Shown here in pieces: positions 4,859 to 32,854 of a DNA stretch of 43,227 nt. The stretch is from positions 1 to 43,227 of IMG/VR virus record IMGVR_UViG_3300024275_000012; one strand, given 5' to 3'. The DNA comes from a virus (lineage: Duplodnaviria > Caudoviricetes). Made by a program: the position numbers and the translations under genes. The first letter of the stretch is position 1. Each line of letters opens with the position of its first letter. The notes beneath the pieces are model-generated. The model saw only the letters and a list, made by a program, of their open reading frames with translations, searched no databases and was not told where the DNA came from.

Positions 4859-5205
4859 TCCTTGCGGTAGCCGGGCCGATCGTCGTAGGGCAGCGCGAGC
4901 AGGCGCAGCGTCTTGCAGGGGAAGTCGTAGGACTGGCAGTCCATGCGCTCCCCGAGCGGGCGGCTGCGGATGTCGTGCTCGGCGATGATCCGCCGCTTGG
5001 CGTCGATCTCCCGCAGCACCCGCGCCGGATCATGCCGGATGACATGCGCCCGATCGCCGTCATTCACCACCAGCGCAACACGGTCCGACGAAGGGACGCT
5101 CACCCAGTTCGTCGGATACTCCCGCCACCCCGAGCCGCTGCAACCACGCGCGATCCGCTCGTCGACGTCCAGCTGGGCGCGCAGCCACTCCACCAGGTCA
5201 TCCAT
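4846..5205 (-). CDS. DUF6221 family protein
   Basis: DLVEWLRAQLDxDE, HDPARVLREIDAKRRI and LRLLALPYxDRPGYRxEWRP motifs. Confidence 0.85.
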   Translation of the reverse strand: MDDLVEWLRAQLDVDERIARGCSGSGWREYPTNWVSVPSSDRVALVVNDGDRAHVIRHDPARVLREIDAKRRIIAEHDIRSRPLGERMDCQSYDFPCKTLRLLALPYDDRPGYRKEWRP

Positions 5206-5503
5206 CAGCTGGCCCCTTCCCGCCCCCACGCCCTGCGTACTCGCCGGACTCGGTGTAGTTCCGGAACGCGTCCTGCACCGCGCTGGGCTTGATCTCAAGG
5301 CGCGCCGCGATCTGCCGGTACGAGAGGCCGTCCTCGTGATGCAGGCGCCGGATCAAGCGGGTGCGCTCCTGCGCCCACGCCTTGTTGCGCGTCACCTGCT
5401 CGGCCATGATCCGGCTCTTCGCCTTCACGCGCTGCTCCTCATCGGCGATCTGCTCGACCGCGTTAAGCGCGTCCGTCACGCGGCGCACCTCCTCGTCGCT
5501 CAT
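5198..5503 (-). CDS. HTH regulator divergent from the transfer module (Kor-like position)
   Basis: GLSYRQIAARLEIKPSAVQD HTH; ATG at 5503. Confidence 0.75.
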   Translation of the reverse strand: MSDEEVRRVTDALNAVEQIADEEQRVKAKSRIMAEQVTRNKAWAQERTRLIRRLHHEDGLSYRQIAARLEIKPSAVQDAFRNYTESGEYAGRGGGKGPADG

Positions 5504-5529
5504 TCCGGCCCCTTCGTCCGCCGGGCCGC

Positions 5530-5568
5530 TTGCCAAGTACTGTAGGTGGCACCTACAGTCGAGAGCAA
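5530..5568. promoter_or_regulatory. Overlapping divergent promoters sharing a palindromic operator
   Basis: ACTGTAGGTG-G-CACCTACAGT (5539-5559); plus strand TTGCCA-N18-TACAGT, minus strand TTGCTC-N18-TACAGT. Confidence 0.7.
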
Positions 5569-5593
5569 GCAGTCCGCACTGCTGATGCACAAC

Positions 5594-5628
5594 GGCCCGG
5601 ACGTGAGTTCGCACCTCACGTCCGGGCC
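5594..5628 (+). other. Leader hairpin with 14-bp stem
   Basis: GGCCCGGACGTGAG-TTCGCAC-CTCACGTCCGGGCC. Confidence 0.65.
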
Positions 5629-5661
5629 CAGCCACCACCTGATCTGACCAGGAGTGACCAC

Positions 5662-5826
5662 ATGCAGCCTAGCGACCAGCAGGCCTCACAGCACACCCCC
5701 GTCATCGAGGACGCGCACGCCACCGTGCAGCAACTCCTCGCCCGCGCCGCCCACGACTACGCCCACGGCTGGGGTCAACCCGACGCCCGCGCCACCGACG
5801 GCAAGAGCCTGGGGAGCGCCGCCTGA
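5662..5826 (+). CDS. Small hypothetical protein, first gene of the transfer operon
   Basis: AGGAG RBS, ATG at 5662, 54 aa. Confidence 0.6.
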   Translation: MQPSDQQASQHTPVIEDAHATVQQLLARAAHDYAHGWGQPDARATDGKSLGSAA

Positions 5827-5972
5827 TGGCCGAGCCCACCTTCGAGGACCAGATGTTCCTCGGGTCCGAGGCGGTCTATGCCCGCATCGTCGACCCGACC
5901 CAGCCGCCGTTCGACGTCGAAGCCGCGCTCATGGACGCGCAAGCCCAAGCCTCCGACAACGAGCAGCAATAA
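5826..5972 (+). CDS. Small acidic protein (48 aa)
   Basis: TGATG coupling; MAEPTFEDQMFLGSEAVYARIVDPTQPPFDVEAALMDAQAQASDNEQQ; below the ORF-track cutoff. Confidence 0.6.
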   Translation: MAEPTFEDQMFLGSEAVYARIVDPTQPPFDVEAALMDAQAQASDNEQQ

Positions 5973-6054
5973 CCCCACAGCCGCCGGGCCCCGCGAACAT
6001 CCCCCCGCGGGGCCCGGCCCTCTCCCCGCTCCGACCGCCACCCGGGAGCCCGCC

Positions 6055-6303
6055 ATGGCACGCCGCCCCAACCACCTGCTCCGCAACCTCCTCATCGCAA
6101 GCCTGATCATCCTCGCCGCCATGCACCGCGACGCGACCGGCCGCATCGCACAGATCGGCACCGAGCTGGTCCTCGCCATCGTCCAAGGCGTAGCAGACGG
6201 AGCAGCCGCCCACCCCGGGCCGGCCATGCTCGCCGCCAGCCTCGTCTGGATCGCCCACCAGATCCGCACCCACCGCCCGCATCCCGCCCGCGCCCACGCC
6301 TGA
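6055..6303 (+). CDS. Small membrane protein, Spd-like
   Basis: GGGAG RBS, hydrophobic segments, position upstream of the traB-like gene. Confidence 0.65.
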   Translation: MARRPNHLLRNLLIASLIILAAMHRDATGRIAQIGTELVLAIVQGVADGAAAHPGPAMLAASLVWIAHQIRTHRPHPARAHA

Positions 6304-6326
6304 ACCCCGTCCCGGAGGCAGCCGTC

Positions 6327-7688
6327 ATGCCCTCGTTCCGCCGTCCCACCCGCACCGTGACCGAGGTCGTCCACGGCGTGCCCGTCGACTACGAGATCCC
6401 CGACACCACCCCCGTCGTCCGGCTCCCCTTCAACCTCGACAGCCTGCTGCGCCGCACCCTGTTCACCGTCGCCGTCGCCATGACCATGGTCGCCATCGTG
6501 TGGGGCACCGTCGCCATCGGCGGCATGCTGCAACTCCTCGCCCCCGCCTGGGCCGCCTACCTCGTTGCCGGAGCGTTCGACGCCGGATGGGCCGCCTGCC
6601 TGATCGCCGAGTGGATCCTTCGCTACGACAGCAAGCGCGCCGAGACCCCCCGCAACGCGGGCGTCGCACTGCTCGCCGTATCGATGGCCGCGATCACCAC
6701 CCACGGTGCGCTCTCCGGACCGTGGGGCTGGATCGTCGGCATCGTCGGCGCCCTCGTCTCCGCCGCCGCGAAGGGCGTGTGGGCGATCGGCATGTACACC
6801 ATCCGCATCAAGCTCGAACCGAAGTACGAGGCGTACCTGCGCACGTTGCAGCAGCAGGCCGGCACCGAGCAGGCCCTCGCCCTCGGCGAGCGCGACAGGC
6901 TGCTGACCCAGGACGGCACGGTAAAGCTGCGTCTCGCGCTGGAGGCCCGGCGTGGACCGGCCGAACCGGTCGTGATCGAGCAGGCCGCACCCGAGCCTGA
7001 GGCAGCGCAGCCGGCCCCCGTCACAGCCGAGCCGGACGCCCCTGCGCGTAGCCCACTGCCGAACGACCCCACCGGCCCGGTCGGCGAGGAGATCGAGGAC
7101 ATCGCCGAGCTGCTCACCGCGGCCCACGCGCCCGTCGTCTATTTCCTCCGCAACGGCAGCCGCGTCAAGATCGGCACCACCCGCAACCTCCGCCGCCGCA
7201 TCGCCGGCCTCGCGCTGCGCCCCGATGACGCCGTCCGTGTCGAGCACGGCGGCCAGGACTACGAGCACTCCCTCCACGCCCGCTTCAACGCCCACCGCGT
7301 CGGCAACACCGAGTGGTTCGAACTCCGCGACGACCTCGCCGCGTACCTCGGCATGCCCGAGGCTCAGCCACTTGAGCTGACGGCTCAGTTCATCGAGCCC
7401 ACGGCTCACCTCGCTGAGCCTCTGCCTGTGACTGGAGGGCTCAGCCCGGTGTCGGTGCAGGCCAGCGTGTCTGAGCCCCAGGCTCAGGCCGTTGCGCCCG
7501 AGGCTCAGGCGTTCGGCTTCTCCGCGCACCTCACGGGCCAGTCGGCTCAGCGCGTCAAGGCGCTGGCTCAGGTCGCTGAGCTCCTGGCTCAGGACCGCGG
7601 CATCACCTCGGAGCAGGTGAAGGAGGAACTCGGAGTCAGCCTGGCCACAGCGAAGCGATACCTCCGCGAAGTCCGCCAGTCCAAGTAA
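6327..7688 (+). CDS. SpdB-like multi-pass membrane protein with an internal GIY-YIG (T5orf172-like) domain and C-terminal HTH
   Basis: About 4 TM helices; coiled coil; VVYFLRNGSRVKIGTTRNLRRRI...EHSLHARF...EWFEL; terminal ITSEQVKEELGVSLATAKRYLREV. Confidence 0.7.
   Translation: MPSFRRPTRTVTEVVHGVPVDYEIPDTTPVVRLPFNLDSLLRRTLFTVAVAMTMVAIVWGTVAIGGMLQLLAPAWAAYLVAGAFDAGWAACLIAEWILRYDSKRAETPRNAGVALLAVSMAAITTHGALSGPWGWIVGIVGALVSAAAKGVWAIGMYTIRIKLEPKYEAYLRTLQQQAGTEQALALGERDRLLTQDGTVKLRLALEARRGPAEPVVIEQAAPEPEAAQPAPVTAEPDAPARSPLPNDPTGPVGEEIEDIAELLTAAHAPVVYFLRNGSRVKIGTTRNLRRRIAGLALRPDDAVRVEHGGQDYEHSLHARFNAHRVGNTEWFELRDDLAAYLGMPEAQPLELTAQFIEPTAHLAEPLPVTGGLSPVSVQASVSEPQAQAVAPEAQAFGFSAHLTGQSAQRVKALAQVAELLAQDRGITSEQVKEELGVSLATAKRYLREVRQSK
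7352..7591. repeat. Intragenic array of GGCTCA/TGAGCC half-sites with 21-bp periodicity
   Basis: GGCTCA at 7361, 7382, 7403, 7438, 7481, 7502, 7544, 7565, 7586; TGAGCY or CGAGCC at 7373, 7394, 7415, 7472, 7577. Confidence 0.8.
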
Positions 7689-7746
7689 GCCGCCCGCCCT
7701 GGCCCCCGCCCACCAGCGGGGGCCGCGCCGTCTACGGAGCCAGCCC

Positions 7747-9504
7747 GTGAAGCTCACCGCCGCCGACCTCGCCACCAGCCTCATTGCCCCCAGCATCGTC
7801 ACCGGCGCCGCCCTCATCGCCGAATGGCAGTACGGAACTCACGCCGCCGTTGCCGAGTTCGTCACCGCGCTGGCCACCGGGAAGCTCGCCTTCGTCAGCT
7901 TCGCCCGCAAGTGGTCGCCGTCCCTGTCCTGGGGTGCGCTCGCGATGGCGGGCGCGTTCACACAGGCAGGCGTCACCACCATTGGGGGCGCCGGGCCTAC
8001 GGCCTACGCGTGGCTGGTCTCCGCGGCCACCGCTGTCGCTGCCCGCCTGGTGTACAAGCACCACACGCGACACGACGAGTTGAAGCTGAACATGGAGGCC
8101 GTGAAACTCCAGACTGCGCTGGTCGGGCAGCAGATCCGACAGCAGCAGCTCGTCAAAATGACCGCGCCCGCGCCCATCGTTGCGGGTCCGGATCTGTCCG
8201 GGCGGACCGTCGAGGAGCAGCAGCTGCGCACCGCGGTGTGGGACACCCTGAAGGCCGAGCTGGCAGGCTGCTTCGTCGAGGCCACCGATGTGGGGTGGAA
8301 GGCGGTCCTGGACTGCCCGCCGTCCCTGGACCGGGCGACGTTGCGTTCCCGGTGGCCGAAGGTGGCCGGGGCGATGCGCGTCGACGGGGCGTTCCACCTC
8401 GACGACGGGCCGCTGACCAGCCAGTTGGTGGTGAACTACATCGACGGCGACCCCCTGGACGCGGCGGTGCCTTACGAGTCGGAGCGTGGTGCGACGTTCC
8501 TCGATCCGGTGGTGATCTCCCGCGACGAGTTCGGGCAGCCCGTCGCGATCGAGATGGCGTACTCCCACACCCTGATCGCCGGGTCGTCGAAGTTCGGGAA
8601 GTCCACGCTGGTCAGGCTGATCGCGATCCGTCTCGCCGGGCGCCCGGACACTGTCCTGTACGGGGTGGACATGAAGCCCGGCAGCCCGGAGCTGTCGCCG
8701 ATGCTGCCGATCCTGCAAGACCTCGCCTCCACCCCGGAGGAGGCGCACGCCCTCATGGACTGGATGCGGCAGGAACTGGACGAGCGCGGCGCGATCCTCT
8801 CCGACCACGGCGACCAGGAGTGGATCCCCGCCAAGCACGGCCGGCCCGCCGTGTACGTCATCGTCGACGAGCACGCCGAGCTGGTCCGCCAGGGCGACAA
8901 GGATCGGAAGAAGGGCGAGCGAATCAGCGACAAGGTGGAGTCGTTCCTCGCGCTGAACAGGGCGTATGGCATCCACATGATCTCGGCGACGCAGCAGCCG
9001 TCGTCGGGGGTGTTCGGTGGGAAGACCGACGCGCGCGGCAACTATGCGATCCGGATCTCCACGCGGATGAACGACCGGGCTCACGCGATGTTCGTGTTCG
9101 GCCGCACCTCCGGCTACAACCCGGGCGACCTGACGAAGCCGGGCGAGATCCTCGTCAACACCCCGGACCATGGGCGGCCGTTCAGGTCGCGGGTGCAGTG
9201 GCTGCGGGGCGAGGACTTCCGGCGTGAGGTGGCCCGGCTGGCGCGGGAGACGGCGAAGGCCCCGGTCGGGAAGCGGCTGATCCTGCCCGTGCCCGGCGCC
9301 ACGAACCAGGAGAAGGTGCGAGCCGCGCTGGCCAAGTACGGCAACGTGACCCGCCGCGAGCTGGAGGCCGCGACCGGACTGGAGGAGAAGCAAGTCCTTG
9401 ACGCGGCCCGCGCTCTCGGCCCGGACGTCGAGCGGTGCGCGGACACACAGACGTGGCGGATCGTGCCCGCCTCCGCATGGGAAGCGCAGGCCGTCGCGAG
9501 CTGA
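7747..9504 (+). CDS. traB: FtsK/SpoIIIE-family DNA translocase, Streptomyces TraB-like
   Basis: N-terminal TM helices, Walker A GSSKFGKS, GVDMK, Walker B YVIVDE, ATQQP, C-terminal winged-helix-like segment (VTRRELEAATGL). Confidence 0.8.
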   Translation: MKLTAADLATSLIAPSIVTGAALIAEWQYGTHAAVAEFVTALATGKLAFVSFARKWSPSLSWGALAMAGAFTQAGVTTIGGAGPTAYAWLVSAATAVAARLVYKHHTRHDELKLNMEAVKLQTALVGQQIRQQQLVKMTAPAPIVAGPDLSGRTVEEQQLRTAVWDTLKAELAGCFVEATDVGWKAVLDCPPSLDRATLRSRWPKVAGAMRVDGAFHLDDGPLTSQLVVNYIDGDPLDAAVPYESERGATFLDPVVISRDEFGQPVAIEMAYSHTLIAGSSKFGKSTLVRLIAIRLAGRPDTVLYGVDMKPGSPELSPMLPILQDLASTPEEAHALMDWMRQELDERGAILSDHGDQEWIPAKHGRPAVYVIVDEHAELVRQGDKDRKKGERISDKVESFLALNRAYGIHMISATQQPSSGVFGGKTDARGNYAIRISTRMNDRAHAMFVFGRTSGYNPGDLTKPGEILVNTPDHGRPFRSRVQWLRGEDFRREVARLARETAKAPVGKRLILPVPGATNQEKVRAALAKYGNVTRRELEAATGLEEKQVLDAARALGPDVERCADTQTWRIVPASAWEAQAVAS

Positions 9505-9532
9505 CAAAACAGCAGGTCAATGACTGTGCGGC

Positions 9533-9620
9533 GGGGTCGGATAGTGGGTCGGACTCCGCCGCATCACGGGTCGGGCGCAGGCCCTCGGCTTGACGCCCAT
9601 CCGACCCTGGATCCGACCCC
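9533..9620. repeat. clt-like locus of 8-bp GGGTCGGA/TCCGACCC repeats
   Basis: GGGTCGGA at 9534 and 9546, GGGTCGGG at 9568, TCCGACCC at 9600 and 9612, directly after the traB-like gene. Confidence 0.6.
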
Positions 9621-9641
9621 TTCCATCAGGAGGAGAACACC

Positions 9642-11925: not shown

Positions 11926-12459
11926 ATGGATACCGGTAACGAGCCACCCGTACCGGCCGACAACACCGGCCACGCCGGGGGCGACTTCACACGCGACGGC
12001 AAAGGCCGCTTCACCTACGAACTCACCACCGCCCAACGCGACGCCCAAGCAGCCGAACTCCGCGCCGAGAACTGGACCCTCCAGGCCATCGCGACCGAGC
12101 TCGGCTATCACGACGCCAGCCACGCCCGCCAAGGCATCCGACGTGCCCTCCGCGAGATCGTCCGTGGGCCGGCCGAGAAGCTGATCGCCATGCACCTCCA
12201 GCGGCTGGAGTCCCTGTACGAGATCGCCATGGACGTTGCGGACGCCAAGCACGTCGTCGTCTCCCACGGCAGGATCGTCGTCGGAGAGGACGGCCAGCCG
12301 CTCACCGACCACGGCCCGAAGCTCGCCGCGGTCCGCGAGGCGCGCGCCACCCTCAACAGCTTCTGGGACCTGACCGGGATGAAGCAGCCGACCAAGGTGG
12401 AGCACTCCGGCGGGGTGAAGTACGAGATCGTGGGCGTCAGCCCGCAGGACATCGTATGA
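11926..12459 (+). CDS. Terminase small subunit (HTH type)
   Basis: WTLQAIATELGY HTH; coupled to terL; -10 TACCAT 6 nt before the ATG. Confidence 0.7.
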   Translation: MDTGNEPPVPADNTGHAGGDFTRDGKGRFTYELTTAQRDAQAAELRAENWTLQAIATELGYHDASHARQGIRRALREIVRGPAEKLIAMHLQRLESLYEIAMDVADAKHVVVSHGRIVVGEDGQPLTDHGPKLAAVREARATLNSFWDLTGMKQPTKVEHSGGVKYEIVGVSPQDIV

Positions 12460-13778
12460 CCGAGGCCGGCACCGTCGTCCGGTACGAACCACGCGGCGGC
12501 GCCAGGGAACTGCTCGGCGCACGCGATCAAGAGATCTGCATCGCCGGCCCGGCCGGCACTGGCAAGAGCCTGGCCATGCTTCAGAAGGCGTTCTACACCA
12601 GCCTCATGATGCCCGGATGCCGGTCCCTCATCGTCCGGCAGACTCACGCCGCACTGACAGGGTCGACGCTGGTCACGTTCGAGCAGCAGGTCGCGACAGC
12701 CGCGCTCGCCGAGGGCGTCGTCCGCTGGTTCGGAGGCAGCCCGCGGAAGCCCCCGGCCTACCAGTTCGCCAACGGGGCGGAGATCCTGGTCGGCGGACTC
12801 GACCGGCCCGAGAAATTTCTCAGTACGGAGTTCTCGCGGATCTACGTGGACGAGGCCACCCAGATCAGCCTCACCGCGCTGGAGACGCTGATCACCCGCC
12901 TGCGCGGCAGCGCGGACACGTACCGGCAGATCGTCCTCGCCTGCAACCCGGACCACCCGAAGCACTGGATCAAGCAGCGGTGCGACGAGGGCACCATGCG
13001 AATGATCCACTCCCTGCACCGCGACAACCCCCTGTACGTCGACGTAGACGGCACCCTCACCGCGCGCGGCGTCGACTACATGGCCAAGCTCGACGCCCTC
13101 ACCGGAGTGCGCCGGCTGCGCTACCGCGATGGAATCTGGGCGGCCGCCGAGGGCCTCGTCTATGAGGGCTGGTCGGATCCCGTCCACGTCATCGAGCCGT
13201 TCGACGTGCCAGCAGGGTGGGTTCGCTGGATCAGCATTGACTTCGGGTACACCGCGCCCTTCGTAGCGCAGCTGTGGGCAGAGGATCCGGACGGGCGCCT
13301 GTACTTGATCCGGGAGTGGGTGCGTAGCCGGATGCTCGTCGAGGACCACGCCGTCGTGATCCGTGACCGGCTCCTGAAGGGTCAGCCGCGACCGCGCGCC
13401 ATCATCACCGACCATGACGCAGAGGACCGGGCGACGCTCGAACGACACTTGGGCATGTCGACGGTCGCCGCGAAGAAGACCGTCTCGGACGGGATCCAGG
13501 CGTTCCAGTCCCGGCTGAAGGTCCAGGGCGACGGGCGGGCGCGCTTGTACGTGTTCCGGGACGCGCTCCTCGAACGGGACCCGGAGATGGATGCCGCGTC
13601 GCTGCCGATCGGGGTGGCTGAGGAGGTGGCGGGCTACGTGTGGGCGGTGAAGCCGGGCAACAAGGGCGGGCTGAAGGAGGAGCCGGAGAAGGCCAACGAT
13701 CACTCGATGGATGCGGGCCGCTACATGGTGGCGGAGCGGGATCTGGGTGGTCGGCCGCAGCTACGGTTCGTGGGTTGA
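12456..13778 (+). CDS. terL: Terminase large subunit
   Basis: Walker A GPAGTGKS, Walker B IYVDEA, CNP, IDFGY, DHSMDAGRY. Confidence 0.95.
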   Translation: MTEAGTVVRYEPRGGARELLGARDQEICIAGPAGTGKSLAMLQKAFYTSLMMPGCRSLIVRQTHAALTGSTLVTFEQQVATAALAEGVVRWFGGSPRKPPAYQFANGAEILVGGLDRPEKFLSTEFSRIYVDEATQISLTALETLITRLRGSADTYRQIVLACNPDHPKHWIKQRCDEGTMRMIHSLHRDNPLYVDVDGTLTARGVDYMAKLDALTGVRRLRYRDGIWAAAEGLVYEGWSDPVHVIEPFDVPAGWVRWISIDFGYTAPFVAQLWAEDPDGRLYLIREWVRSRMLVEDHAVVIRDRLLKGQPRPRAIITDHDAEDRATLERHLGMSTVAAKKTVSDGIQAFQSRLKVQGDGRARLYVFRDALLERDPEMDAASLPIGVAEEVAGYVWAVKPGNKGGLKEEPEKANDHSMDAGRYMVAERDLGGRPQLRFVG

Positions 13779-13792
13779 CGGGAGGATTTGCG

Positions 13793-13972
13793 GTGAACTG
13801 GCAGAAGCTCGCACTACGACTGAAGAATTTGCGGTCAGCCGCCTATTTGACAGGAGGATTTACACTGATCTCGACTGGGCTCGGTATGCGCTTCGGTCTA
13901 TGGCTTGGGCTGCTCATCGCCGGGGTCCTCGCCGTCCTGTACGAGCACCACCTGAGCCGCTCAGCCAGATAG
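13793..13972 (+). CDS. Small membrane protein between terL and portal
   Basis: GGGAGG RBS, GTG at 13793, two hydrophobic helices. Confidence 0.65.
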   Translation: MNWQKLALRLKNLRSAAYLTGGFTLISTGLGMRFGLWLGLLIAGVLAVLYEHHLSRSAR

Positions 13973-13988
13973 CCCGAGGGGAGGGAAG

Positions 13989-15581
13989 TTGAGCGACAGC
14001 TTCCTTACCTCCCTCGCCACCGCAGCCACCACCTTCCGCAACCGCGCCCCGATCGCCCTCGCCCCCAACGGCGGCCGCTCCGGACTGCTGTCGAGCATCG
14101 TCCGCCCCGCCGGCCAGGAAGCGCAGATGCGCGCCATGGGCAGCGTGGGCACCCTGTTCGCGATCGTCGAGCGGATCACCACCGCCTACTCGCAGGTCGA
14201 ATGGCACCTCTACCGCAGCGCCAAGAGCGGCCGCGACGAGGACCGTGTCGAAGTCACCTCACACGCGGCCCTCGATCTGTGGCAGCAGCCCAACTCGTTC
14301 ATGACGGGGCCGATGTGGCGTGAGGCGACGCAGCAGCATGAGGAGCTGACGGGCGAGCAGTGGTGGGTGATCTCCCGCGACGAGCGCAGCAGCATCCCGC
14401 TGGAGCTGTGGTTCGCCCGCCCCGACCGCATGACCCCCATCCCGGACCGCGATAAGTTCCTGTCCGGGTACGTGTACTCCAGCCCGACAGGCGAGCAGGT
14501 CCCCCTCGGCATCAACGACGTCATCATGCTGCGCCGGCCGAACCCGCTGGATCCGTACCGAGGGTGGGGTCCGGTGCAGACCCTCCTCGCCGACCTCGAC
14601 TCCAGCAGGGCCAGCGCCGAGTGGAACGCGAACTTCTTCCGCAACAGCGCGCAGCCCGGCGGCATCGTCCAGGCCGACCAGCGCCTCTCCGATGACGAGT
14701 TCAACGAGTTCCGTGACCGCTGGAACGAACAGCACCGCGGCGTGTCCAACGCCCACCGGATCGCCGTGCTGGAGAACGGCCTCAAGTGGGTCGACCGCTC
14801 GTACTCGATGGCGGACATGCAGTTCGCCGAGCTGCGCAACGTGTCGAGGGAGATCATCCGGGAAGCGTTCGGCTTCCCCAAGCCCATGTTGGGCACGGTC
14901 GACGACGCGAACCGGGCGAACATGGAAGCGGCGAACGACATGCTCGCCCGCTGGCTCATCCGCCCCCGCCTCGAACGCATCCGTCAGGCCTTGAACACCA
15001 GGCTTCTCCCCATGTACGGGCGTCTCGGTGAGGGCCTGGAGTTCGACTTCGAGGACCCGGTCACCGGGGACGTCGAGCTGGAATCCAAGCAGCTCACCGC
15101 GCGGGCCAACGCGGCGCAGTCCCTCGTGCACGCGGGCTACGACCAGCAGAGCGTCGCCTCCGCAGTCGGCCTGCCCGACATGGGCTTCCGGGATCCGCGC
15201 GAGCAGCTCCTCGTCGACATCGTCCGCGGCGCCCCGAGCACCGCCCCGGTGATCCTGCCGCTGCTGGGCTTCGACATCGACGTAAGCAAGCTCGCCCCGG
15301 CCGCATCGAACTCCTGGGCCGACGCGGTGGCCGGGCTGCTGGGCGAGGGCCCGGCGGAGATTGAGGCGGCGCAGCGGTGGGTGGTGCAGATCGTCGATGA
15401 CGGCGACACCTGCCACAACTGCCGTGAGCAGCAGGGCCGCACCTACAAGAACCGTGAGCAGGCGTACCGGGACTACCCCGGCGGCGAGGGCTACGTCCGC
15501 TGCGAGGGCGTGCAGTACGGCAACTTGTGCCGCTGCAAGGTCGTGAAGCGAGGCCGCAAGGGCGGTGGTGGCGATGAGTAA
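13989..15581 (+). CDS. Portal protein (HK97-like) with a C-terminal MuF-like Cys motif
   Basis: NFFRNSAQPGG, DMQFAELR, IREAFGFP; tail W..VDDGDTCHNC...NLCRC. Confidence 0.9.
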   Translation: MSDSFLTSLATAATTFRNRAPIALAPNGGRSGLLSSIVRPAGQEAQMRAMGSVGTLFAIVERITTAYSQVEWHLYRSAKSGRDEDRVEVTSHAALDLWQQPNSFMTGPMWREATQQHEELTGEQWWVISRDERSSIPLELWFARPDRMTPIPDRDKFLSGYVYSSPTGEQVPLGINDVIMLRRPNPLDPYRGWGPVQTLLADLDSSRASAEWNANFFRNSAQPGGIVQADQRLSDDEFNEFRDRWNEQHRGVSNAHRIAVLENGLKWVDRSYSMADMQFAELRNVSREIIREAFGFPKPMLGTVDDANRANMEAANDMLARWLIRPRLERIRQALNTRLLPMYGRLGEGLEFDFEDPVTGDVELESKQLTARANAAQSLVHAGYDQQSVASAVGLPDMGFRDPREQLLVDIVRGAPSTAPVILPLLGFDIDVSKLAPAASNSWADAVAGLLGEGPAEIEAAQRWVVQIVDDGDTCHNCREQQGRTYKNREQAYRDYPGGEGYVRCEGVQYGNLCRCKVVKRGRKGGGGDE

Positions 15582-15720
15582 CGTCACCGTCCCGTCCCAA
15601 CTCCACCGGTCTGCACGGTCGTTGACCTGCGGAAACGGTAGAATCAGCCGTAACAACAATGGACCCCGGCGAGTGCTACCAACACTCCCGGGGCGTGGCC
15701 GATCTGCTGAGGAGATCGAC

Positions 15721-16548
15721 ATGACACAGGTTACCCCTGCCTGCGCGCGCCCGACGAAGCGGCGCCGCAACGGCAGCACCGGAACTGCGACTGGCTACAC
15801 AGCCCACCGTGCGGCGCGTGAACCCGTTTGTGATCCCTGCGCGGAGGCCTGGCGCGTCAAGCAGGCCGAGCGCAAGGCCAACCTGAGCCCGGCCCGCCTT
15901 GCGCGGGAGCGTGCGCGTAAGGCTGAGCTGGCCCGCATGCGGCGGCAGGCAGACAACGCGTGCGCCTCGGACGATCTCGCGGGCACCGCTGCCGGATACG
16001 CAGCGCACATTGCCGCGGACCAGGTCCCATGCCAACCCTGCCGCGACGCCTCCGCCGCTCACGACTACGGGTCCGTCTGCGCGCGGCCCACGCGCCGCTG
16101 CCCGGACGGGCGCACTGGTACGCGCTCCGGATACCTCGCTCACCTCTACGCAGGCGAGCCCGCCTGCGACGCGTGCCTGAAGGGGTCCGCGTCGGAGGAG
16201 AAGGACTCCCGGGCGCAGGATCCCGAGAAGGCACTGCGGAACACCCTCTGGTCCAAGTACCGGATGACGCTTGAGGACTACCGCGCGCGCCTCGAATCGC
16301 AGGGCGGGAAGTGCGCCGTGTGCCAGATCGACGCCCCCACCGACTTTCGCACCCGCCGGTTCCACGTCGACCACGACCACTCGTGCTGCCCCACGTCGAG
16401 CAAGACCTGCGGCAAGTGCACCCGTGGGCTGCTCTGCCACGCCTGCAACACCGGGCTTGGCAACTTCCAGGACAACCCGGAGCGGCTCCTCGCCGCCGTG
16501 GCCTACCTCACGGCCAGAAAGGGGGCCACACCCGATGCCGTTCATTGA
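15721..16548 (+). CDS. Endonuclease VII (His-Me finger) protein with three N-terminal zinc-finger-like repeats
   Basis: QGGKCAVC...HVDHDH...RGLLCHACNTGLG; three C-x-GTxxGYxxHxxxxxxxCxxC units; GAGGAG RBS. Confidence 0.85.
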   Translation: MTQVTPACARPTKRRRNGSTGTATGYTAHRAAREPVCDPCAEAWRVKQAERKANLSPARLARERARKAELARMRRQADNACASDDLAGTAAGYAAHIAADQVPCQPCRDASAAHDYGSVCARPTRRCPDGRTGTRSGYLAHLYAGEPACDACLKGSASEEKDSRAQDPEKALRNTLWSKYRMTLEDYRARLESQGGKCAVCQIDAPTDFRTRRFHVDHDHSCCPTSSKTCGKCTRGLLCHACNTGLGNFQDNPERLLAAVAYLTARKGATPDAVH

Positions 16549-17575
16549 CCTTCCTGACCGCGTCCCGGGCCTGCGTGCACAGGCCCGGGAGTCCCGGCCC
16601 TGGTACCGCATCACCAACCAGGCCGCCGACGAAGCGGAAGTGATGCTGTACGACGAGGTCGGGGGCTGGCTGGGCGCTACCGCTGACGACTTCATCAACG
16701 ACCTGCGCGGCATCACGGCTCCGAACATTCTGCTCAGGGTCAACAGCCCTGGCGGATCGGTGACAGAGGGAATCGCGATCGCCAACGCCCTGCGCTCCCA
16801 TCCGGCGAATGTCACGGTTCAGGTGGACGGCGTTGCGGCGAGCATCGCCTCGGTCATTGCGATGGCCGGTGACCACGTGCGGATGATGCCGAACGCGCTT
16901 TTGATGGTGCATGAGGCGAGCGGCGTTTGCGTCGGGGAAGCCGCCGACATGATCAAAATGGCGGAGGTCCTCGACAAGATCTCCGACAACATTGCCGGGG
17001 CCTACGCAGCCCGAGCAGGCGGCACCGAGGCCGAGTGGCGCCAGGTCATGAAGAACGAGACCTGGTACAGAGGCGAAGAAGCCGTCAAGGCAGGGCTCGC
17101 GGACGAGGTCGTGCAGACGCCGAAGCGCAGCGATGAGTCCGCGGAACCCGAGATGCGGCAGCAGTTCGATCTCGCCGCATACGGGTACGCCGGCCCCCGC
17201 GCCGAACCGCCGACGGCCGAGACCGGGCTGACGGAGGACATCCGCTCTCTCATCGGCGAGGAAGTCGCGGCGCAGCTTGCTGCTGCGGTTGCCCCGTCGG
17301 CAGCCGAGCCCGTGCAGCCGGAGCCCGTCGCCGAGACGGAGCCTGACGGCCCACGGTGCGCGATGTGCAACGAACTCGCCAGCGAGCACGAGGGCCACTT
17401 CCACGACCTCTCGGCAGAACCCGCCCCCGAGGCGCCAGCCGAGACCGAGCCCGAGGACGCGTGGGCGGCAGCCGTCGCCCACCTCGTCCAGCCCAAGCCT
17501 GACCCGTGGGCCGCAGCCGTGGCCCGCCTTATCAACCCCACGTCGGCGGCCCGCTCGGCGACGGACGCAGCCTGA
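16535..17575 (+). CDS. Head maturation protease, ClpP-like
   Basis: VNSPGG, AASIASVIAMAG, MVHEAS, ETWY..EEAVKAGLAD. Confidence 0.93.
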   Translation: MPFIDLPDRVPGLRAQARESRPWYRITNQAADEAEVMLYDEVGGWLGATADDFINDLRGITAPNILLRVNSPGGSVTEGIAIANALRSHPANVTVQVDGVAASIASVIAMAGDHVRMMPNALLMVHEASGVCVGEAADMIKMAEVLDKISDNIAGAYAARAGGTEAEWRQVMKNETWYRGEEAVKAGLADEVVQTPKRSDESAEPEMRQQFDLAAYGYAGPRAEPPTAETGLTEDIRSLIGEEVAAQLAAAVAPSAAEPVQPEPVAETEPDGPRCAMCNELASEHEGHFHDLSAEPAPEAPAETEPEDAWAAAVAHLVQPKPDPWAAAVARLINPTSAARSATDAA

Positions 17576-17585
17576 AGGAGGCAGC

Positions 17586-18947
17586 ATGGCAACCCCCACC
17601 ATCCCGAGCAACGCCGACGAGCTGGCGGAGATGCTCGCCGACCCGGCGAAGGCGTCGCCGATCGTCGAGACGCCGAAGGCTCTGGCGGACTTCATCACCC
17701 AGTACGCCAACCGGCAGCAGGGTGAGGGCACCGACCTCAACCGGCAGATCGCCGAGGAGACGCAGCGGCAGTTCGCTGCGATGCTCCGTGACCACGGCAA
17801 GGACGTCAGCCAGAAGGACGCCGAGCAGGCGATCCGGCGTCTCGACCTGGACCCGCAGGCCAAGCGCGGCGGGATGCTCACCTCGCACCGGCAGGGCACC
17901 GCCTACAACGCGGGCGCGCCCGGCGCACAGGTGGACAAGCACTTCGACAACGCGATCGACTACGTGCGCAACATCTGGCACAAGAACCCGAACGCGAACG
18001 CGGAGAAGCTGGCCGCGCTCGTCAACGCCGCAGGCAGCGTCAGCCCGGCGGACGGCGGGTTCCTCGTCCCGGAGACGCTCCGTAGCCAGCTGCTGCAGCT
18101 CGCGCTGGAGCAGGCCGTTGTTCGGCCGCTGGCCACGGTCGTCCCGATGGACTCGGCCCGGGTGCCGTTCCCGATGATCGACACCACGACCAACGCGGGC
18201 AGCGTGTTCGGCGGGATGATCGCCTACTGGGGTGAGGAAGGCGCCGCCCTCACCGACTCCAACCCGAAGTTCGGCCGGGTCACCCTCGACGCGAAGAAGC
18301 TCACCGGCCTCTCCGCGGTCCCCAACGAGCTGCTCCAGGACTCCATCGTCAGCTTCTCCGCGCTGATCGAGACGCTGTGGCCGCAGGCCCTCGCTTTCTC
18401 CGAGGACAACGCGTTCCAGTCCGGCACCGGCACCGGCGAGCCCCTCGGGTTCCGCGGCGCAGGCAACCCGGCCGCGGTCACCGTGTCCCGCGGCACCGCC
18501 AGCACGATCAAGTACCCGGACGTCGTCGGCATGTACGCGCGGATGCTGCCGTCGTCGCTGTCCAACGCGGTGTGGATGTGCGCCCCGGACGCGCTGCCGC
18601 AGCTGCTCCAGATGTCTCTCACCGTCGGCACTGGCGGCAACTCGGTGTTCGTCGTCAACGCGGCGGCGGGCATGCCGATGTCCATCTTCGGACGGCCGCT
18701 GATCATCACCGAGCGCGGCAGCCAGCTCGGCTCCCGCGGCGACCTCGTGTTCTGCGACCTCTCGTACTACCTGGTGGGCGACCGCCAGGTCATGACCGCC
18801 GACTCCTCGACGGACTACAACTTCGGCTCCGACAAGACGACGTTCCGGATCATCCAGCGCGTCGACGGCCGGCCGTGGATCCAGTCCGCCATCACCCCCC
18901 AGAACGGCAGCTCCAGCACCCTGTCGCCGTTCGTCGAACTCCTCTAG
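17586..18947 (+). CDS. Major capsid protein, HK97 fold
   Basis: DGGFLVPE, AYWGEEG, SNPKFGRVTLDAKKL, GTGTGEPLG, RVDGRP. Confidence 0.93.
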   Translation: MATPTIPSNADELAEMLADPAKASPIVETPKALADFITQYANRQQGEGTDLNRQIAEETQRQFAAMLRDHGKDVSQKDAEQAIRRLDLDPQAKRGGMLTSHRQGTAYNAGAPGAQVDKHFDNAIDYVRNIWHKNPNANAEKLAALVNAAGSVSPADGGFLVPETLRSQLLQLALEQAVVRPLATVVPMDSARVPFPMIDTTTNAGSVFGGMIAYWGEEGAALTDSNPKFGRVTLDAKKLTGLSAVPNELLQDSIVSFSALIETLWPQALAFSEDNAFQSGTGTGEPLGFRGAGNPAAVTVSRGTASTIKYPDVVGMYARMLPSSLSNAVWMCAPDALPQLLQMSLTVGTGGNSVFVVNAAAGMPMSIFGRPLIITERGSQLGSRGDLVFCDLSYYLVGDRQVMTADSSTDYNFGSDKTTFRIIQRVDGRPWIQSAITPQNGSSSTLSPFVELL

Positions 18948-19045
18948 CCCCCCCACGGCCGCCGCCGGCATTCACACCCCGGCGGCGGCTTCCACCGGGC
19001 CGGCAGTGTCGCCCCGGACCGGACCTCAGACGAAAGGAAAACCCG

Positions 19046-19486
19046 ATGTCTCAGCGAGCACTCGGCAGGCTCATCAACCCGACCCCCGCGGCCGACGGTG
19101 TGTGGATCGCCCTCAAGGGCGCCGCGGCTGGCGTCACCTTTTCGTGCTTCCTCACGGGCGCGGTCGGTGACACCTACACGCTGCAGGAGGCGAAGGACAA
19201 CGCCGGGACCGGCGCGCAGAACCTCGCGATCATCACCGAGTACCACACCAACACCGGTAACGCGTCGGACGCGTGGACCCGGCGGACGCAGGCTGCGGCG
19301 GCGACGGTAGTCACGGCGGCAGCGGCCACGCAGAACGCGATGGTCGTCGAGGTCGAGGGCACGTCGCTGTCCGACACCTACAAGTACGTGAAGCTCACGT
19401 CGACCGGCGCGGGCACCGTGACCGCGATCCAGCGGGACCTCGGCGTGCAGCGCGCCCCGGCCTCCCTGCCCGCGACCGGGGCCTGA
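19046..19486 (+). CDS. Virion structural protein, possibly head decoration
   Basis: AAAGGA RBS; follows the capsid gene; beta-rich Ala/Thr composition. Confidence 0.6.
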   Translation: MSQRALGRLINPTPAADGVWIALKGAAAGVTFSCFLTGAVGDTYTLQEAKDNAGTGAQNLAIITEYHTNTGNASDAWTRRTQAAAATVVTAAAATQNAMVVEVEGTSLSDTYKYVKLTSTGAGTVTAIQRDLGVQRAPASLPATGA

Positions 19487-19487
19487 C

Positions 19488-19877
19488 GTGGCGGTGTGGA
19501 CGTGCGCCGACTGCACGGCGGACTACGCGGTGGGCGCCCCGGCGTGTCCGCAGTGCGGGTCCGTCGTGCGGATCGACGAAAGGCCCATGCCGAAGGAGGA
19601 AGGCGAGGACATGGCGAAGATCACCGTTCACGGCGGTCCGAGCAACGCGGCCGCCGACGCGGAGGGGGGTGAGGACGTATCAGCTGGTACCAGCTCATCG
19701 ACATCCTCCGAGAAGGAGCCGAGCTCGCCCGGGACGAGCAGCAGCGACAGCCCGTCGCCTGCCCGAACGACGGGGAGCCGCTCGAAGAAGGCGGCGACGG
19801 CCAAGGCCTCTTCTGCCCGTGGGACGGGTGGCGGCCCGGCGGCCGGCATGTCGGAGACCGACGGCTCTGAGGCCTGA
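19488..19877 (+). CDS. Hypothetical protein with zinc ribbon and low-complexity tail
   Basis: CADC...CPQC; position in the head operon. Confidence 0.6.
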   Translation: MAVWTCADCTADYAVGAPACPQCGSVVRIDERPMPKEEGEDMAKITVHGGPSNAAADAEGGEDVSAGTSSSTSSEKEPSSPGTSSSDSPSPARTTGSRSKKAATAKASSARGTGGGPAAGMSETDGSEA

Positions 19878-19905
19878 CCGCTACCCAATCGACTGACGAG
19901 AGGAG

Positions 19906-20976
19906 GTGACAGAGATGAGCAGTACTCCGTTCTATGCGACCCGCGAGGAGATCAAGGCTGAGCTGGACGTGCGGGAGACTGCGCGTAGCAACACCCGGAT
20001 TGATCGCGCGCTGGCCGATGCGACCGAGGCCGTGCACGGGCTGACGCACCGGGTGTTCTACCCGGTGGTGGAGACGCGGCGGTTCGACTGGCCGCCCCGT
20101 GCTGGGGCGACGCCGTGGATTCTGCGGCTCGACAGCAACGAACTCATCTCCGTCACCTCCCTCACCAGCGGCGGGACGGCTATCGCCCCGGGTGACTACC
20201 TGCTGCGCCGGGCTGATGACCGGGCCGAACCCCCGTACACGCGTATCGAGATCAACCTCGGTAGCGACGCCTCGTTCGGCGGCGGCGACACCTACCAGCA
20301 GGACATCGCGGTGACCGGCCTGTTCGGCTACCGCAACGACGAGACTTCGGTGGGCACGCTTGCCGCACCGGTGGTTTCGACGACCGCCACGACCATCACC
20401 GTTGACGGCCCGGCATCCGCGGCGCTGGGTGTCGGTTCGCTGCTCCGTATCGACGACGAACGCATGGTCGTCACCGGGCGGTCCCAGCTCGATACGGGGC
20501 AGGGCTTCGGCGACTCGATGAACAAAGACAACTCCGATGTCTCGATCGGCGCGGCGAACGGCGGCGCCTACGCGGTCGGCGAGGTCATCCTCCGCGACTC
20601 CGAACGCATGCTCATCACGGAGATCGCAGGAAACACGATCTCCGTGATCCGGGCGTGGGATGGCAGCGTCCTGGCTGCGCACGCCGACTCGGCGATCTAC
20701 GCGCCCCGCATCCTCACCGTGGCCCGCGGTGCGCTCGGCACGACGGCCGCCACCCACACCAGCGGAACCGCTGTGCAGCAGTGGCAGGCACCCGGGCCGG
20801 TCCGGCAGTTGTGCGTGGCCGAGGCGCTGGTGGACTTGCTGCAAGGCCGGTCCGGGTACGCGCGGACGGCGGGCTCGGGTGAGAACGAGCGGGAGACCAG
20901 CGGCAAGGGGCTCGCTGATCTGCGTGCCCGCGTGTACACCAGCCACGGCCGCAAGGCCCGGATGCGGAGCGTCTGA
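19906..20976 (+). CDS. Head-tail connector/adaptor with extra beta domains
   Basis: FYATREEIKAEL adaptor-like start; repeated IDDERM/RDSERM..RG..GT modules. Confidence 0.7.
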   Translation: MTEMSSTPFYATREEIKAELDVRETARSNTRIDRALADATEAVHGLTHRVFYPVVETRRFDWPPRAGATPWILRLDSNELISVTSLTSGGTAIAPGDYLLRRADDRAEPPYTRIEINLGSDASFGGGDTYQQDIAVTGLFGYRNDETSVGTLAAPVVSTTATTITVDGPASAALGVGSLLRIDDERMVVTGRSQLDTGQGFGDSMNKDNSDVSIGAANGGAYAVGEVILRDSERMLITEIAGNTISVIRAWDGSVLAAHADSAIYAPRILTVARGALGTTAATHTSGTAVQQWQAPGPVRQLCVAEALVDLLQGRSGYARTAGSGENERETSGKGLADLRARVYTSHGRKARMRSV

Positions 20977-21350
20977 TGCGACTCGACGTCTCCACCAGCA
21001 GCCGCGGCCCGATCTTCGACGGGCGCGCCCGGATCGCAGCCAACCAGTACGTGGACCGGCTGGAACGCGACCTCGCCGAGGAAGGCCTCAACATCCTCAA
21101 GCGTGAGATGCGCGCAGTGTTCCGCAACCCGACCGGCTACTACGAGTCCCGCTGCGTCGTCGTCGACGGCCGAACGATCTGGGACAGCAGGGTCGTGTAC
21201 GGGCCGTGGCTGGCCGGCATCGGCAGCAGGAACTACCCGGTGACGAAATTCAAGGGCTACGACCACTGGATCCGCACGAGGCATGAGCTGAACTCCCGCA
21301 AGCGCGGCATCGGCGAACGGCTGCTGCGCCGCTATACGGGCAGGATGTGA
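20976..21350 (+). CDS. Neck/tail completion protein (HK97 gp10-like)
   Basis: PTGYY...VVYGPWL motif and synteny. Confidence 0.6.
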   Translation: MRLDVSTSSRGPIFDGRARIAANQYVDRLERDLAEEGLNILKREMRAVFRNPTGYYESRCVVVDGRTIWDSRVVYGPWLAGIGSRNYPVTKFKGYDHWIRTRHELNSRKRGIGERLLRRYTGRM

Positions 21351-21356
21351 TCGCCC

Positions 21357-21815
21357 GTGTCTCTTGACCTCCTCGCCTACCGCAGCGCGGTCATGTCGCA
21401 GGCACAGGCCCTCGGCGTGTTCGAGCAGGTGCTCGGGCACGAGCCAGTGTCCGCGCCCGGGAGCGGCTTGATCTACGCGGTGTGGGTGACGCGAGTCGCG
21501 CCGATCCCTGCCGGGTCTGGTGTCGCTGCGGGCACGGGCCGCCTGGAACTCGCGGGCCGGGTGTTCATGCCCGCAGACACGGAGCCGCAGAACGACGTGG
21601 ACATCGCCGTGACGAGCGCGGTCGACCAGCTCATCAGCGCCCTGTTCGCGGACTTCACGCTCGGCGACACGATTCGCAACGTCGACGTGCTCGGCGCGCA
21701 CGGCACCCCGCTGTCTGCGGCGTTCGGGTTCACCCGCTTCGACAGCACCACGTACAGGGTGGCCACGCTCACCGTGCCCCTGATCATCAACGACCTGTGG
21801 ACGGAGGCCCCGTAG
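21357..21815 (+). CDS. Tail terminator-like protein
   Basis: DFTLG motif, size and synteny. Confidence 0.65.
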   Translation: MSLDLLAYRSAVMSQAQALGVFEQVLGHEPVSAPGSGLIYAVWVTRVAPIPAGSGVAAGTGRLELAGRVFMPADTEPQNDVDIAVTSAVDQLISALFADFTLGDTIRNVDVLGAHGTPLSAAFGFTRFDSTTYRVATLTVPLIINDLWTEAP

Positions 21816-23007: not shown

Positions 23008-23013
23008 TCGGCC

Positions 23014-23415: not shown

Positions 23416-23425
23416 GGAGCAGCGC

Positions 23426-27616: not shown

Positions 27617-27629
27617 AAGGGACGACGGA

Positions 27630-28133: not shown

Positions 28134-28136
28134 CCG

Positions 28137-31010: not shown

Positions 31011-31022
31011 GGAGGAAGCATC

Positions 31023-32050: not shown

Positions 32051-32063
32051 CGGAGGGAATGAC

Positions 32064-32846: not shown

Positions 32847-32854
32847 GGACACCA

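What the first reader, a model, noticed from the sequence alone, without database searches (positions are those of the whole stretch)
5198..9620. A complete-looking plasmid-type conjugation/spreading module inside a tailed temperate phage
Seen: between the early genes and the terminase lie a regulator and operator, three small genes, an SpdB-like membrane protein, a TraB/FtsK translocase with intact Walker motifs and a C-terminal wHTH-like segment, and a repeat locus. The virion gene set and serine integrase look intact. Known: one TraB plus a clt site is enough for dsDNA transfer in Streptomyces, and Spd proteins spread the element within the mycelium. From memory, plasmid-phages such as pZL12/phiZL12 are a partial precedent. 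Inference: this integrase-bearing phage may move in two ways, as virions and as naked DNA across hyphal contacts or cross-walls. That route would avoid receptor-level resistance and extracellular anti-phage metabolites.
Basis: partly seen in the sequence, partly recalled or inferred. Interest (0 to 1): 0.85.

Follow-up and report, generated by a model that had tools for sequence, protein, structure and literature searches.

The report
Plasmid-type DNA pump in Streptomyces prophages
A family of temperate Streptomyces phages carries, just before its packaging genes, an intact membrane-anchored DNA pump, a short repeat site whose sequence changes in step with the pump's predicted DNA-reading helix, and a plasmid-type spreading protein, so these phages likely also move as naked DNA between hyphal compartments or touching hyphae (untested).

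Summary
The block is real and belongs to the phage. It holds a divergent HTH regulator, three small ORFs, a four-helix membrane protein related to pIJ101 SpdB, an intact FtsK/TraB-like translocase (7747-9504) and convergent GGGTCGG repeats (9534-9620). Relatives sit upstream of virion genes in 16 of 18 chromosomal loci, in prophages with at least three head types and both integrase classes. No Rep or integrase adjoins it. One virion-less, AICE-like element uses the same pump. The pump's predicted recognition helix matches the downstream repeat word in 49 of 50 loci, largely regardless of motor ancestry. Some relatives carry T5orf172 nuclease-like domains fused to a different-specificity helix, possibly aimed at rival phages. 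Best reading: the pump loads on excised phage DNA and moves it across cross-walls or hyphal contacts; transfer is untested. Precedents exist (plasmid-phage pZL12; SpdB2 homologues in actinophages), and this scan noted similar modules on other DNA. Verdict: new variant of a known kind.

The parts
5198..5503 (-). Divergent HTH regulator, likely repressor of the module (Kor-like role inferred; not the GntR/TraR type)
   Evidence: Pfam HTH_23 E 6e-7 on 5198-5500; relatives hold this or another small divergent gene in the same slot
5530..5559 (+). Predicted promoter TTGCCA-18-TACAGT overlapping a perfect 10-bp inverted repeat (5539-5548 / 5550-5559), candidate operator
5594..5628 (.). Perfect 14-bp hairpin in the leader
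5662..5826 (+). Small ORF s1 (54 aa), no family; no homologue in the first four related loci compared
5826..5972 (+). Small ORF s2 (48 aa), homologues in a few loci
6055..6303 (+). Small ORF s3 (82 aa), conserved directly upstream of the Spd-like gene
   Evidence: cluster spanning the window and 26 loci
6327..7688 (+). SpdB-like membrane protein: four predicted TM helices (46-154), long helix to about 208, optional T5orf172/GIY-YIG-like insert (271-336), C-terminal HTH (about 410-452)
7361..7592 (.). Array of 10 GGCTCAG words on both strands inside the Spd-like coding sequence; candidate binding field for that protein's own HTH
   Evidence: 10 observed against mean 0.5, max 3 in 2000 synonymous-codon shuffles; two codon phases; word tracks HTH class in 52 of 53 genes
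7747..9504 (+). FtsK/SpoIIIE-family, TraB-like dsDNA translocase: N-terminal membrane anchor, motor with intact Walker A/B, C-terminal winged helix with predicted recognition helix EKQVLDAARA (547-556)
9512..9519 (+). GCAGGTCA motif just after the stop codon, seen in the four helix classes with more than one member; role unknown
9534..9620 (.). clt-like locus: GGGTCGG at 9534, 9546, 9568 and its reverse CCGACCC at 9601, 9613 (convergent)
11926..33959 (+). Host phage late region: terS-like, terL 12456-13778, portal 13989-15581, Clp protease 16535-17575, major capsid 17586-18947, tail genes, long tape-measure-like ORF 23969-27616, amidase 32076-32846
37686..39332 (+). Large serine integrase, internal to the contig, followed by a divergent repressor/Cro-like pair (39819-40751)

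Best explanation
This is a phage-resident module of an FtsK/TraB-like DNA pump, a matching repeat site and an SpdB-like membrane protein, which likely pumps the excised double-stranded phage genome across hyphal cross-walls and donor-recipient contacts without a virion.

Shown here: the anatomy, intact motifs, purifying selection, residence in full prophages and the helix-word pairing.

Inferred steps: (1) the divergent HTH protein represses the operon at the 5539-5559 palindrome until excision or infection; (2) the pump assembles in the membrane and its winged-helix helix 3 binds GGGTCGG in 9534-9620, where the convergent copies could load two pumps facing opposite ways on a circle; (3) ATP hydrolysis drives the DNA into the next compartment or cell; (4) the Spd-like protein binds the GGCTCAG array in its own gene, tethers the genome to the membrane and assists passage through cross-walls; (5) the incoming circle integrates or goes lytic. 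The specificity cassettes are swapped among phages by recombination, possibly driven by T5orf172-helix fusion nucleases.
For: Homology: the pump family aligns to pIJ101 Tra from Walker A into the winged helix (hhalign 97%, E 2e-10), and the membrane protein family aligns to pIJ101 SpdB (92%, E 5e-7). PMC4447253 (introduction and passages) states that Tra/TraB alone suffices for transfer and that TraB also takes part in spreading.

Repeat site: it lies directly after the gene, like the clt of pWTY27 (PMC3583192, passages). Helix class predicts the repeat word in 49 of 50 loci over six classes; the best of 10,000 shuffles gave 33. A word-blind nearest-neighbour test gave 46 of 48. Words are 94% conserved against 54% for spacers in 20 loci. 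PMC3583192 cites helix alpha-3 as the TraB specificity element.

Context: a virion-less element with Prim-Pol, Spd-like gene, 52%-identical pump and serine recombinase (L019/G412) has the AICE parts list of PMC3218068.

Selection: dN/dS 0.16-0.26; Walker A intact in 120 of 120 homologues.
Against: No transfer, binding or expression data exist.

The pump falls in its own clade with Gilgamesh gp10 and a 132-kb capsid-bearing plasmid, apart from pJV1 TraB, pIJ101 Tra, ZL12 gp71 and chromosomal FtsK; deep branches are unresolved. NF041214 TraB score is 32.7 against a cut-off of 800.

FtsK-like genes without a known transfer role occur in many Bacillus and Mycobacterium phage records (175 and 51 of 244 hits).

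Helix and repeats lie about 120 bases apart, so linkage explains part of the covariation, and the word classes were chosen after seeing the data.

The distant sister clade (32-43% identity) shows no repeat array after the gene. Phages SF3 and TurkishDelight carry the Spd-like gene with no Pfam-detected FtsK among the five large genes tested there.

In pIJ101, SpdA2, which binds repeats in its own gene, affects stability and not transfer (PMC4170104).
Confidence: 0.6

Rival explanations
1. The pump and both repeat systems act only inside one mycelium. They would anchor and segregate excised or replicating phage DNA at septa (into neighbouring compartments or spores), with no transfer between different hyphae.
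For: The motor's best structural matches are FtsK and TcpA. Convergent repeats resemble polar chromosome-segregation signals (recalled: KOPS). SpdA2/sps, the nearest precedent for a self-encoded array, is a stability function (PMC4170104). FtsK-like genes are common in phages of non-filamentous hosts.
Against: These phages integrate and need no partition system as lysogens. The same pump sits in a virion-less AICE-like element. In plasmids one TraB serves both transfer and spread (PMC4447253).
Confidence: 0.27
2. The module serves phage-phage conflict or the lytic cycle. It would trap or clear incoming rival DNA, or position DNA for packaging, and the specificity turnover would reflect that conflict and not transfer.
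For: Rapid swapping of helix/word classes across the motor tree (19 changes, minimum 5). T5orf172-helix fusions differ in helix from the resident pump in 5 of 5 cases. Usual position just before terS/terL.
Against: The pump's helix matches the phage's own repeat, not a rival's. Isolated Streptomyces phages mostly lack this pump (2 records, one phage, among 244 hits), so it is not needed for packaging in general. Conflict over the repeat is also expected if it is a valuable transfer site.
Confidence: 0.09
3. The block is an independent plasmid or AICE remnant inserted into this phage, or a decaying passenger.
For: All parts are plasmid-like. Spd-like homologues occur on small Streptomyces plasmids. 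One relative is in a virion-less element.
Against: No Prim-Pol in the contig and no integrase or Rep beside the block. Same slot upstream of virion genes in 16 of 18 chromosomal loci and inside full prophages in 10 of 11 genomes read further. GC content matches the flanks. Purifying selection, and 80 of 81 loci without a stop.
Confidence: 0.04

Closest known systems
pIJ101 Tra (KilA) / SpdB / clt of Streptomyces lividans (NC_001387)
   Same: Membrane-anchored FtsK-type motor ending in a winged helix; SpdB-type four-helix membrane protein; divergent regulator; short direct plus inverted repeats as cis site (clt description from PMC3583192 passages).
   Different: On a rolling-circle plasmid with a GntR-type repressor. 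Homology is remote (32-35% over aligned columns). Gene order differs (tra before spd). No virion genes.
Plasmid-phage pZL12 / phage ZL12 (NC_013420; primary paper not held)
   Same: A tailed-phage genome with an FtsK-like tra gene (gp71) four genes upstream of the terminase (gp67). PMC3583192 states its conjugal transfer needs tra plus two adjacent genes. Virion production is recalled and implied by the cited title.
   Different: A 90-kb ParAB plasmid prophage, described as a singleton (PMC7157519 passage). Its pump is a distant lineage (12 bits to our profile), and its membrane gene gp73 does not match the Spd-like profile. Here the carriers are integrating prophages forming a large family.
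AICEs (pSAM2, SLP1 type; PMC3218068 passages)
   Same: Integrase plus FtsK-type Tra and clt; dsDNA circle as the proposed substrate. Relative L019/G412 has Int, Tra and Prim-Pol.
   Different: AICEs have no virion genes and use RepSA, RepAM or Prim-Pol replication. The window has a virion set and no Prim-Pol.
Streptomyces phage Gilgamesh gp10 and 130-kb Streptomyces phage-plasmids
   Same: Closest annotated pumps (30-34% identity), in the same clade. Gilgamesh gp10 lies near terL.
   Different: No function attached in the records. Different winged helix and no repeat array seen after the gene.
SpdB2 homologues in actinophages phiC31 and VWB (PMC4447253 passage)
   Same: The idea that Spd proteins help spread phage DNA is already in print.
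   Different: That passage names only the Spd protein, not a translocase with its own repeat site.
SpdA2 / sps of pIJ101 (PMC4170104 abstract and first part of Results)
   Same: A protein binding repeats inside its own coding region.
   Different: SpdA2 is a small (135 aa) protein binding a 12-bp palindrome in 2-3 copies. Here a membrane-anchored HTH sits over 7-mer arrays that differ by HTH class.
Odn (Gp88) of vibriophage ICP1 (PMC8263062 passages)
   Same: A T5orf172 nuclease fused to a DNA-binding domain captured from a rival element, cutting at that element's repeats; analogue of the T5orf172-winged-helix fusions in relatives.
   Different: Odn targets a satellite's replication iterons and is proven. 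The fusions here are untested and absent from the window as a separate gene.

Membership tests
Streptomyces TraB/clt transfer system | FtsK/SpoIIIE ATPase with intact Walker A/B | tested here: met
   PF01580 E 5e-15; Walker A in 120 of 120 homologues, Walker B pattern in 118 of 120; FtsK and TcpA as top PDB matches
Streptomyces TraB/clt transfer system | N-terminal membrane anchor | tested here: met
   Hydrophobic segments at 6-24 and 34-52; prediction only
Streptomyces TraB/clt transfer system | C-terminal winged helix | tested here: met
   Three helices plus a beta hairpin at 520-575, pLDDT 74-87; aligns with the pIJ101 Tra tail
Streptomyces TraB/clt transfer system | Adjacent short-repeat cis site specific to helix 3 | tested here: met
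   49 of 50 and 46 of 48 covariation tests; binding itself not measured
Streptomyces TraB/clt transfer system | Hexameric pore and dsDNA transfer between mycelia | not testable with these tools
   Needs biochemistry and matings
plasmid_TraB equivalog NF041214 (pJV1/pSN22 type) | Score over curated cut-off; same clade | tested here: not met
   32.7 bits against 800; separate clade. pIJ101 Tra and ZL12 gp71 also fail this model.
SpdB-type spreading proteins | Four-TM membrane domain homologous to a characterised SpdB | tested here: met
   pIJ101 SpdB 92%, E 5e-7; no match to the pJV1 371-aa membrane protein and no DUF2637 hit for the window protein
SpdB-type spreading proteins | Needed for pock formation and intramycelial spread | not testable with these tools
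   Needs deletion mutants
AICE | Int + Tra + RepSA/RepAM/Prim-Pol, no virion genes | tested here: not met
   Virion genes present; no Prim-Pol; RepSA and RepAM not searched; contig incomplete
Plasmid-phage (pZL12 type) | Extrachromosomal prophage with ParAB and plasmid Rep | tested here: inconclusive
   No ParAB seen among the proteins scanned, but about a fifth of the genome is missing; relatives lie within chromosomal contigs, 8 with an integrase at the edge
Temperate tailed phage | Terminase, portal, capsid, tail, lysin, integrase, repressor | tested here: met
   virion production not tested

The most novel reading that the evidence does not exclude
A widespread family of integrating Streptomyces phages are true conjugative phages. 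After excision they spread through and between mycelia by a TraB-type pump with a private address code. Rival phages fight over those addresses with nucleases that have captured the pump's or the Spd protein's DNA-reading helix, which drives the swapping of address cassettes. From the prophage state the pump could also mobilise host chromosome.
Probability: 0.35. Interest if true: 0.85.

Novelty: new variant of a known kind. Interest (0 to 1): 0.62.

Why it matters
How phages spread in a compartmentalised, filamentous host is an open question. If this module works as its anatomy suggests, ordinary integrating prophages have a second, virion-free route that bypasses adsorption, and the line between prophage and AICE blurs. 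The natural set of six helix-word pairs gives a ready-made specificity code for TraB-type motors that can be tested by helix swaps. Cultured lysogens with known strain names exist (for example L016, L017, L020), so the experiment is direct. The nuclease-helix fusions would be an Odn-like conflict over a transfer site.

Tried and rejected
Inserted AICE or plasmid: rejected. Decay: rejected. A protein-level repeat as the cause of the GGCTCAG array: rejected, because copies lie on both strands, in two codon phases and use a rare Ala codon. Orthology to pJV1-type TraB or chromosomal FtsK: not supported.

Structure models were poor overall (mean pLDDT 49 and 56), so only the terminal helix domains were used. 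The Spd model gave no fold match at E <= 0.001, only weak HTH matches. The wider structural search gave no result.

The careful tree did not finish; the quick tree was used. No intrinsic terminator found. No RNA holder listed. A viral-contig search for more nuclease-helix fusion loci found none. Contig cover of 1-20000 was not obtained; one search shows one 40.8-kb record whose first 13,055 letters lie on 30000-43054.

The primary papers on pZL12 and on TraB helix 3 were not held and are cited second-hand. Eight paper searches listed no paper that, by title or abstract start, describes TraB plus clt in integrating Streptomyces prophages; the library omits most subscription journals. No complex prediction was run.
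Full report
Observation. The window is a linear viral record of 43,227 bases, about 81% complete. It has terminase, portal, Clp protease, capsid, tail, amidase and a serine integrase as full-length ORFs. The integrase is internal, with lysis genes on one side and a repressor/Cro-like pair on the other. One contig of uniform depth crosses it without a joint (that run may be the source of the window). This suggests the non-integrated form. The block 5198-9620 is as described: a divergent HTH gene, a promoter overlapping a perfect 10-bp palindrome, three small ORFs, a membrane protein, an FtsK-family ATPase and repeats. GC content matches the flanks.

The pump. ORF 7747-9504 (585 aa) has two hydrophobic N-terminal segments, PF01580, Walker A GSSKFGKS and Walker B VIVDE. 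A winged helix is predicted at 520-575, the only confident part of the model. Closest solved structures are TcpA and FtsK. A protein search gave 231 homologues at E <= 1e-20, the best 120 at 61-100% identity, nearly all named ones from Streptomyces. Walker A is intact in 120 of 120. dN/dS against the eight closest loci is 0.16-0.26, and 1 of 81 loci has an in-frame stop. The family profile aligns to pIJ101 Tra from Walker A into the winged helix (97%, E 2e-10). It is not a member of the narrow TraB equivalog (32.7 bits, cut-off 800). On a quick tree of 36 motors it groups with Gilgamesh gp10 and a 132-kb circular element that encodes a major capsid protein and ParAB. A 99-support branch separates this group from pJV1 TraB, pIJ101 Tra, ZL12 gp71, chromosomal FtsK and two multi-ATPase chromosomal proteins; deeper order is unresolved and several branches are long.

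Is the block part of the phage? Yes. Of 20 loci from whole-genome contigs (not preselected as viral), 18 have at least 7 kb downstream. Sixteen show terminase, portal or capsid genes there, one shows a terS-like gene plus a sugar-enzyme cluster, and one shows neither. For the core clade after removing six duplicates, the counts are 27, 6 and 2 of 35. I read 40-80 kb around the pump in 11 genomes. Ten hold a head-and-tail set (with PHROG checks for G410 and G001). Eight show an integrase at the far edge of the early region (six of the phrog_1 family, two serine), about 21 and 25 kb away in the two I measured. Head modules belong to at least three PHROG capsid families (10, 777, 29). No Prim-Pol is in the window. 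The exception, L019/G412, has Prim-Pol, an Spd-like gene, a 52%-identical pump and a serine recombinase, with no virion genes seen in the 40 kb read. That is the Int-Tra-Rep definition of an AICE in PMC3218068 (passages). The family is uncommon: 6 of 401 sampled Streptomyces-genus genomes at E <= 1e-45, one being the chosen centre, with only three candidates scored per genome.

The repeat site. After the stop codon lie three GGGTCGG copies and two reverse copies. Fifty distinct loci had the core-type winged helix and 150 bases downstream; the other 31 loci were distant-clade, truncated or duplicate. The predicted helix 3 sorts them into six classes, and the dominant word follows the class in 49 of 50: EKQVLDA with GGTCGG (20), ERQVL-type with GTCCC (20), DKQVRDA with GGTGGA (5 of 6, the miss a tie), DKQVLRAL with GGTCTC (2), and two singletons. 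The best of 10,000 shuffles was 33. Because I chose the words after seeing the data, I ran a word-blind test: the nearest locus by repeated 6-mers, near-identical regions excluded, shares the helix class in 46 of 48. In 20 loci of the window's class the words are 94% conserved and the spacers 54%. On the motor tree the classes need 19 changes (minimum 5, shuffled mean 23). The window's class is not clustered (335 of 500 shuffles as low), though the other main class is somewhat clustered (2 of 500). The window's closest motor (91%) is of the other class. So helix and site travel as a cassette. Linkage explains part of this. However, L070 has the window's helix and word with the other class's wing in between, and each class required several copies of the word to change together. 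PMC3583192 (passages) describes a clt directly after traA with direct and inverted repeats, and cites helix alpha-3 as the specificity element of pSVH1 TraB. The distant clade shows no such array.

The membrane protein and a second code. ORF 6327-7688 has four hydrophobic segments, a long helix, a T5orf172 domain and a confident C-terminal HTH. The T5orf172 insert is optional: 12 of the 120 listed homologues carry it. The family profile matches pIJ101 SpdB (92%, 35% identity over 133 columns) and not the pJV1 membrane protein. An N-terminal homologue lies directly upstream of the pump in 32 of 39 core loci, and 6 of the other 7 have a similar-sized gene with a same-class HTH tail. Ten GGCTCAG words sit in its coding sequence, against 0.5 expected from synonymous shuffles. 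Across five HTH classes the class's own word is the most frequent in 52 of 53 genes (words chosen). pSVH1 SpdB2 is reported to bind DNA non-specifically (PMC4447253). The nearest precedent for a self-encoded site is SpdA2/sps, a stability function (PMC4170104).

Signs of conflict. Three distinct loci carry a separate 231-239 aa gene that fuses T5orf172 to a copy of the pump's winged helix, right beside the repeats. A search found 12 such proteins. In the three loci the fusion's helix differs from the resident pump's. I then predicted the reverse pairing for two fusions with the other helix type. The pumps with the same source and contig length are indeed of the window's class; sharing a contig is inferred from length, not shown. 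L046 likewise fuses T5orf172 to an Spd-type HTH unlike its resident's. ICP1 Odn is a proven nuclease of this design (PMC8263062 passages), and T5orf172 genes are treated as homing endonucleases in PMC10448857 (abstract and section titles). This is five cases and no biochemistry.

Mechanism. I commit to TraB-type movement of the excised phage circle across cross-walls and hyphal contacts (0.6). Segregation inside one mycelium only is the main rival (0.27). Shown: anatomy, conservation, residence and covariation. Inferred: repression, binding, pore formation, direction and recipient.

Known context. ZL12 has a tra gene four genes before its terminase, and its conjugal transfer is stated in PMC3583192; the primary paper was not held. 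PMC4447253 already suggests that SpdB2 homologues of phiC31 and VWB may spread phage DNA. PMC13587820 notes FtsK-like genes in two new Streptomyces phages without assigning a transfer role (one passage). PMC4487206 describes a pZL12-like plasmid (passages). My eight searches listed no description of this module in integrating prophages. No supplements were read; supplementary AICE or prophage tables could list such loci. This scan noted similar modules on other DNA (nine notes seen). These are unchecked notes and not independent support; my covariation results came before I saw them.

Verdict. Observation confirmed, interpretation plausible and partly supported, function untested. New variant of a known kind; interest 0.62.

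Noticed in passing
L017:11886-12605(+), L031:3919-4614(-), L068:3589-4296(-); proteins P0241-P0252: Stand-alone T5orf172 nuclease-like domain fused to a copy of the pump's winged helix, beside the repeat site, with a helix unlike the resident pump's; candidate Odn-like or homing nuclease against rival phages.
   Followed up: partly
L046:8923-9945(+): T5orf172 fused to an Spd-type HTH of a different class from the resident Spd-like gene just upstream.
   Followed up: partly
L015, L043-L046, L051, L052, L054, L060, L062; G410: A terS-like gene followed by nucleotide-sugar epimerase, glycosyltransferase and methyltransferase genes ahead of the terminase; possible virion or DNA glycosylation cluster.
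   Followed up: no
L019 / G412:C49 about 90000-108500: Virion-less AICE-like element (Prim-Pol, Spd-like gene, pump, serine recombinase) next to genes that read like rpsB and tsf, with its own helix-word pair.
   Followed up: partly
window 386, 1145, 4299, 9512, 10326, 15623, 22123, 40344: GCAGGTCA occurs 8 times (1.9 expected), several at gene ends; denser in prophage stretches than in mostly host stretches (20 per 160 kb against 9 per 140 kb).
   Followed up: partly
window 34563-35318(-) and 35460-35795(+): GntR-UTRA regulator (family of plasmid TraR/KorA, recalled) divergent from a small ORF after the lysis genes, far from the module.
   Followed up: no
window 15937-16548(+): Endonuclease VII-type gene between portal and protease genes; relatives carry other HNH/EndoVII genes near the module and terminase.
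   Followed up: no
window 11128-11517(+): A WYL-domain gene; related ORFs (one loose cluster, 46 loci) sit between the module and terS.
   Followed up: no
L090 (SF3 gp690), L091 (TurkishDelight gp97): Isolated phages with the Spd-like membrane protein but no Pfam-detected FtsK among the large genes tested there.
   Followed up: partly
L092, L093 (7-10 kb Streptomyces plasmids): Same divergent small gene, small ORFs and Spd-like gene layout on small plasmids; L093 has a weakly FtsK-like ATPase downstream, L092's 599-aa gene has no Pfam hit.
   Followed up: partly
L047, L048, L081: The module faces the tail genes head-on, a different genome layout, with a GGGTCTC word.
   Followed up: no
L063 upstream gene: CGGACC repeated 40 times within the coding region of the membrane-HTH gene of a distant-clade locus.
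   Followed up: no
L010: A 4.5-kb contig with the module filed in a Gemmatimonadales MAG; probably a mis-binned phage contig.
   Followed up: no
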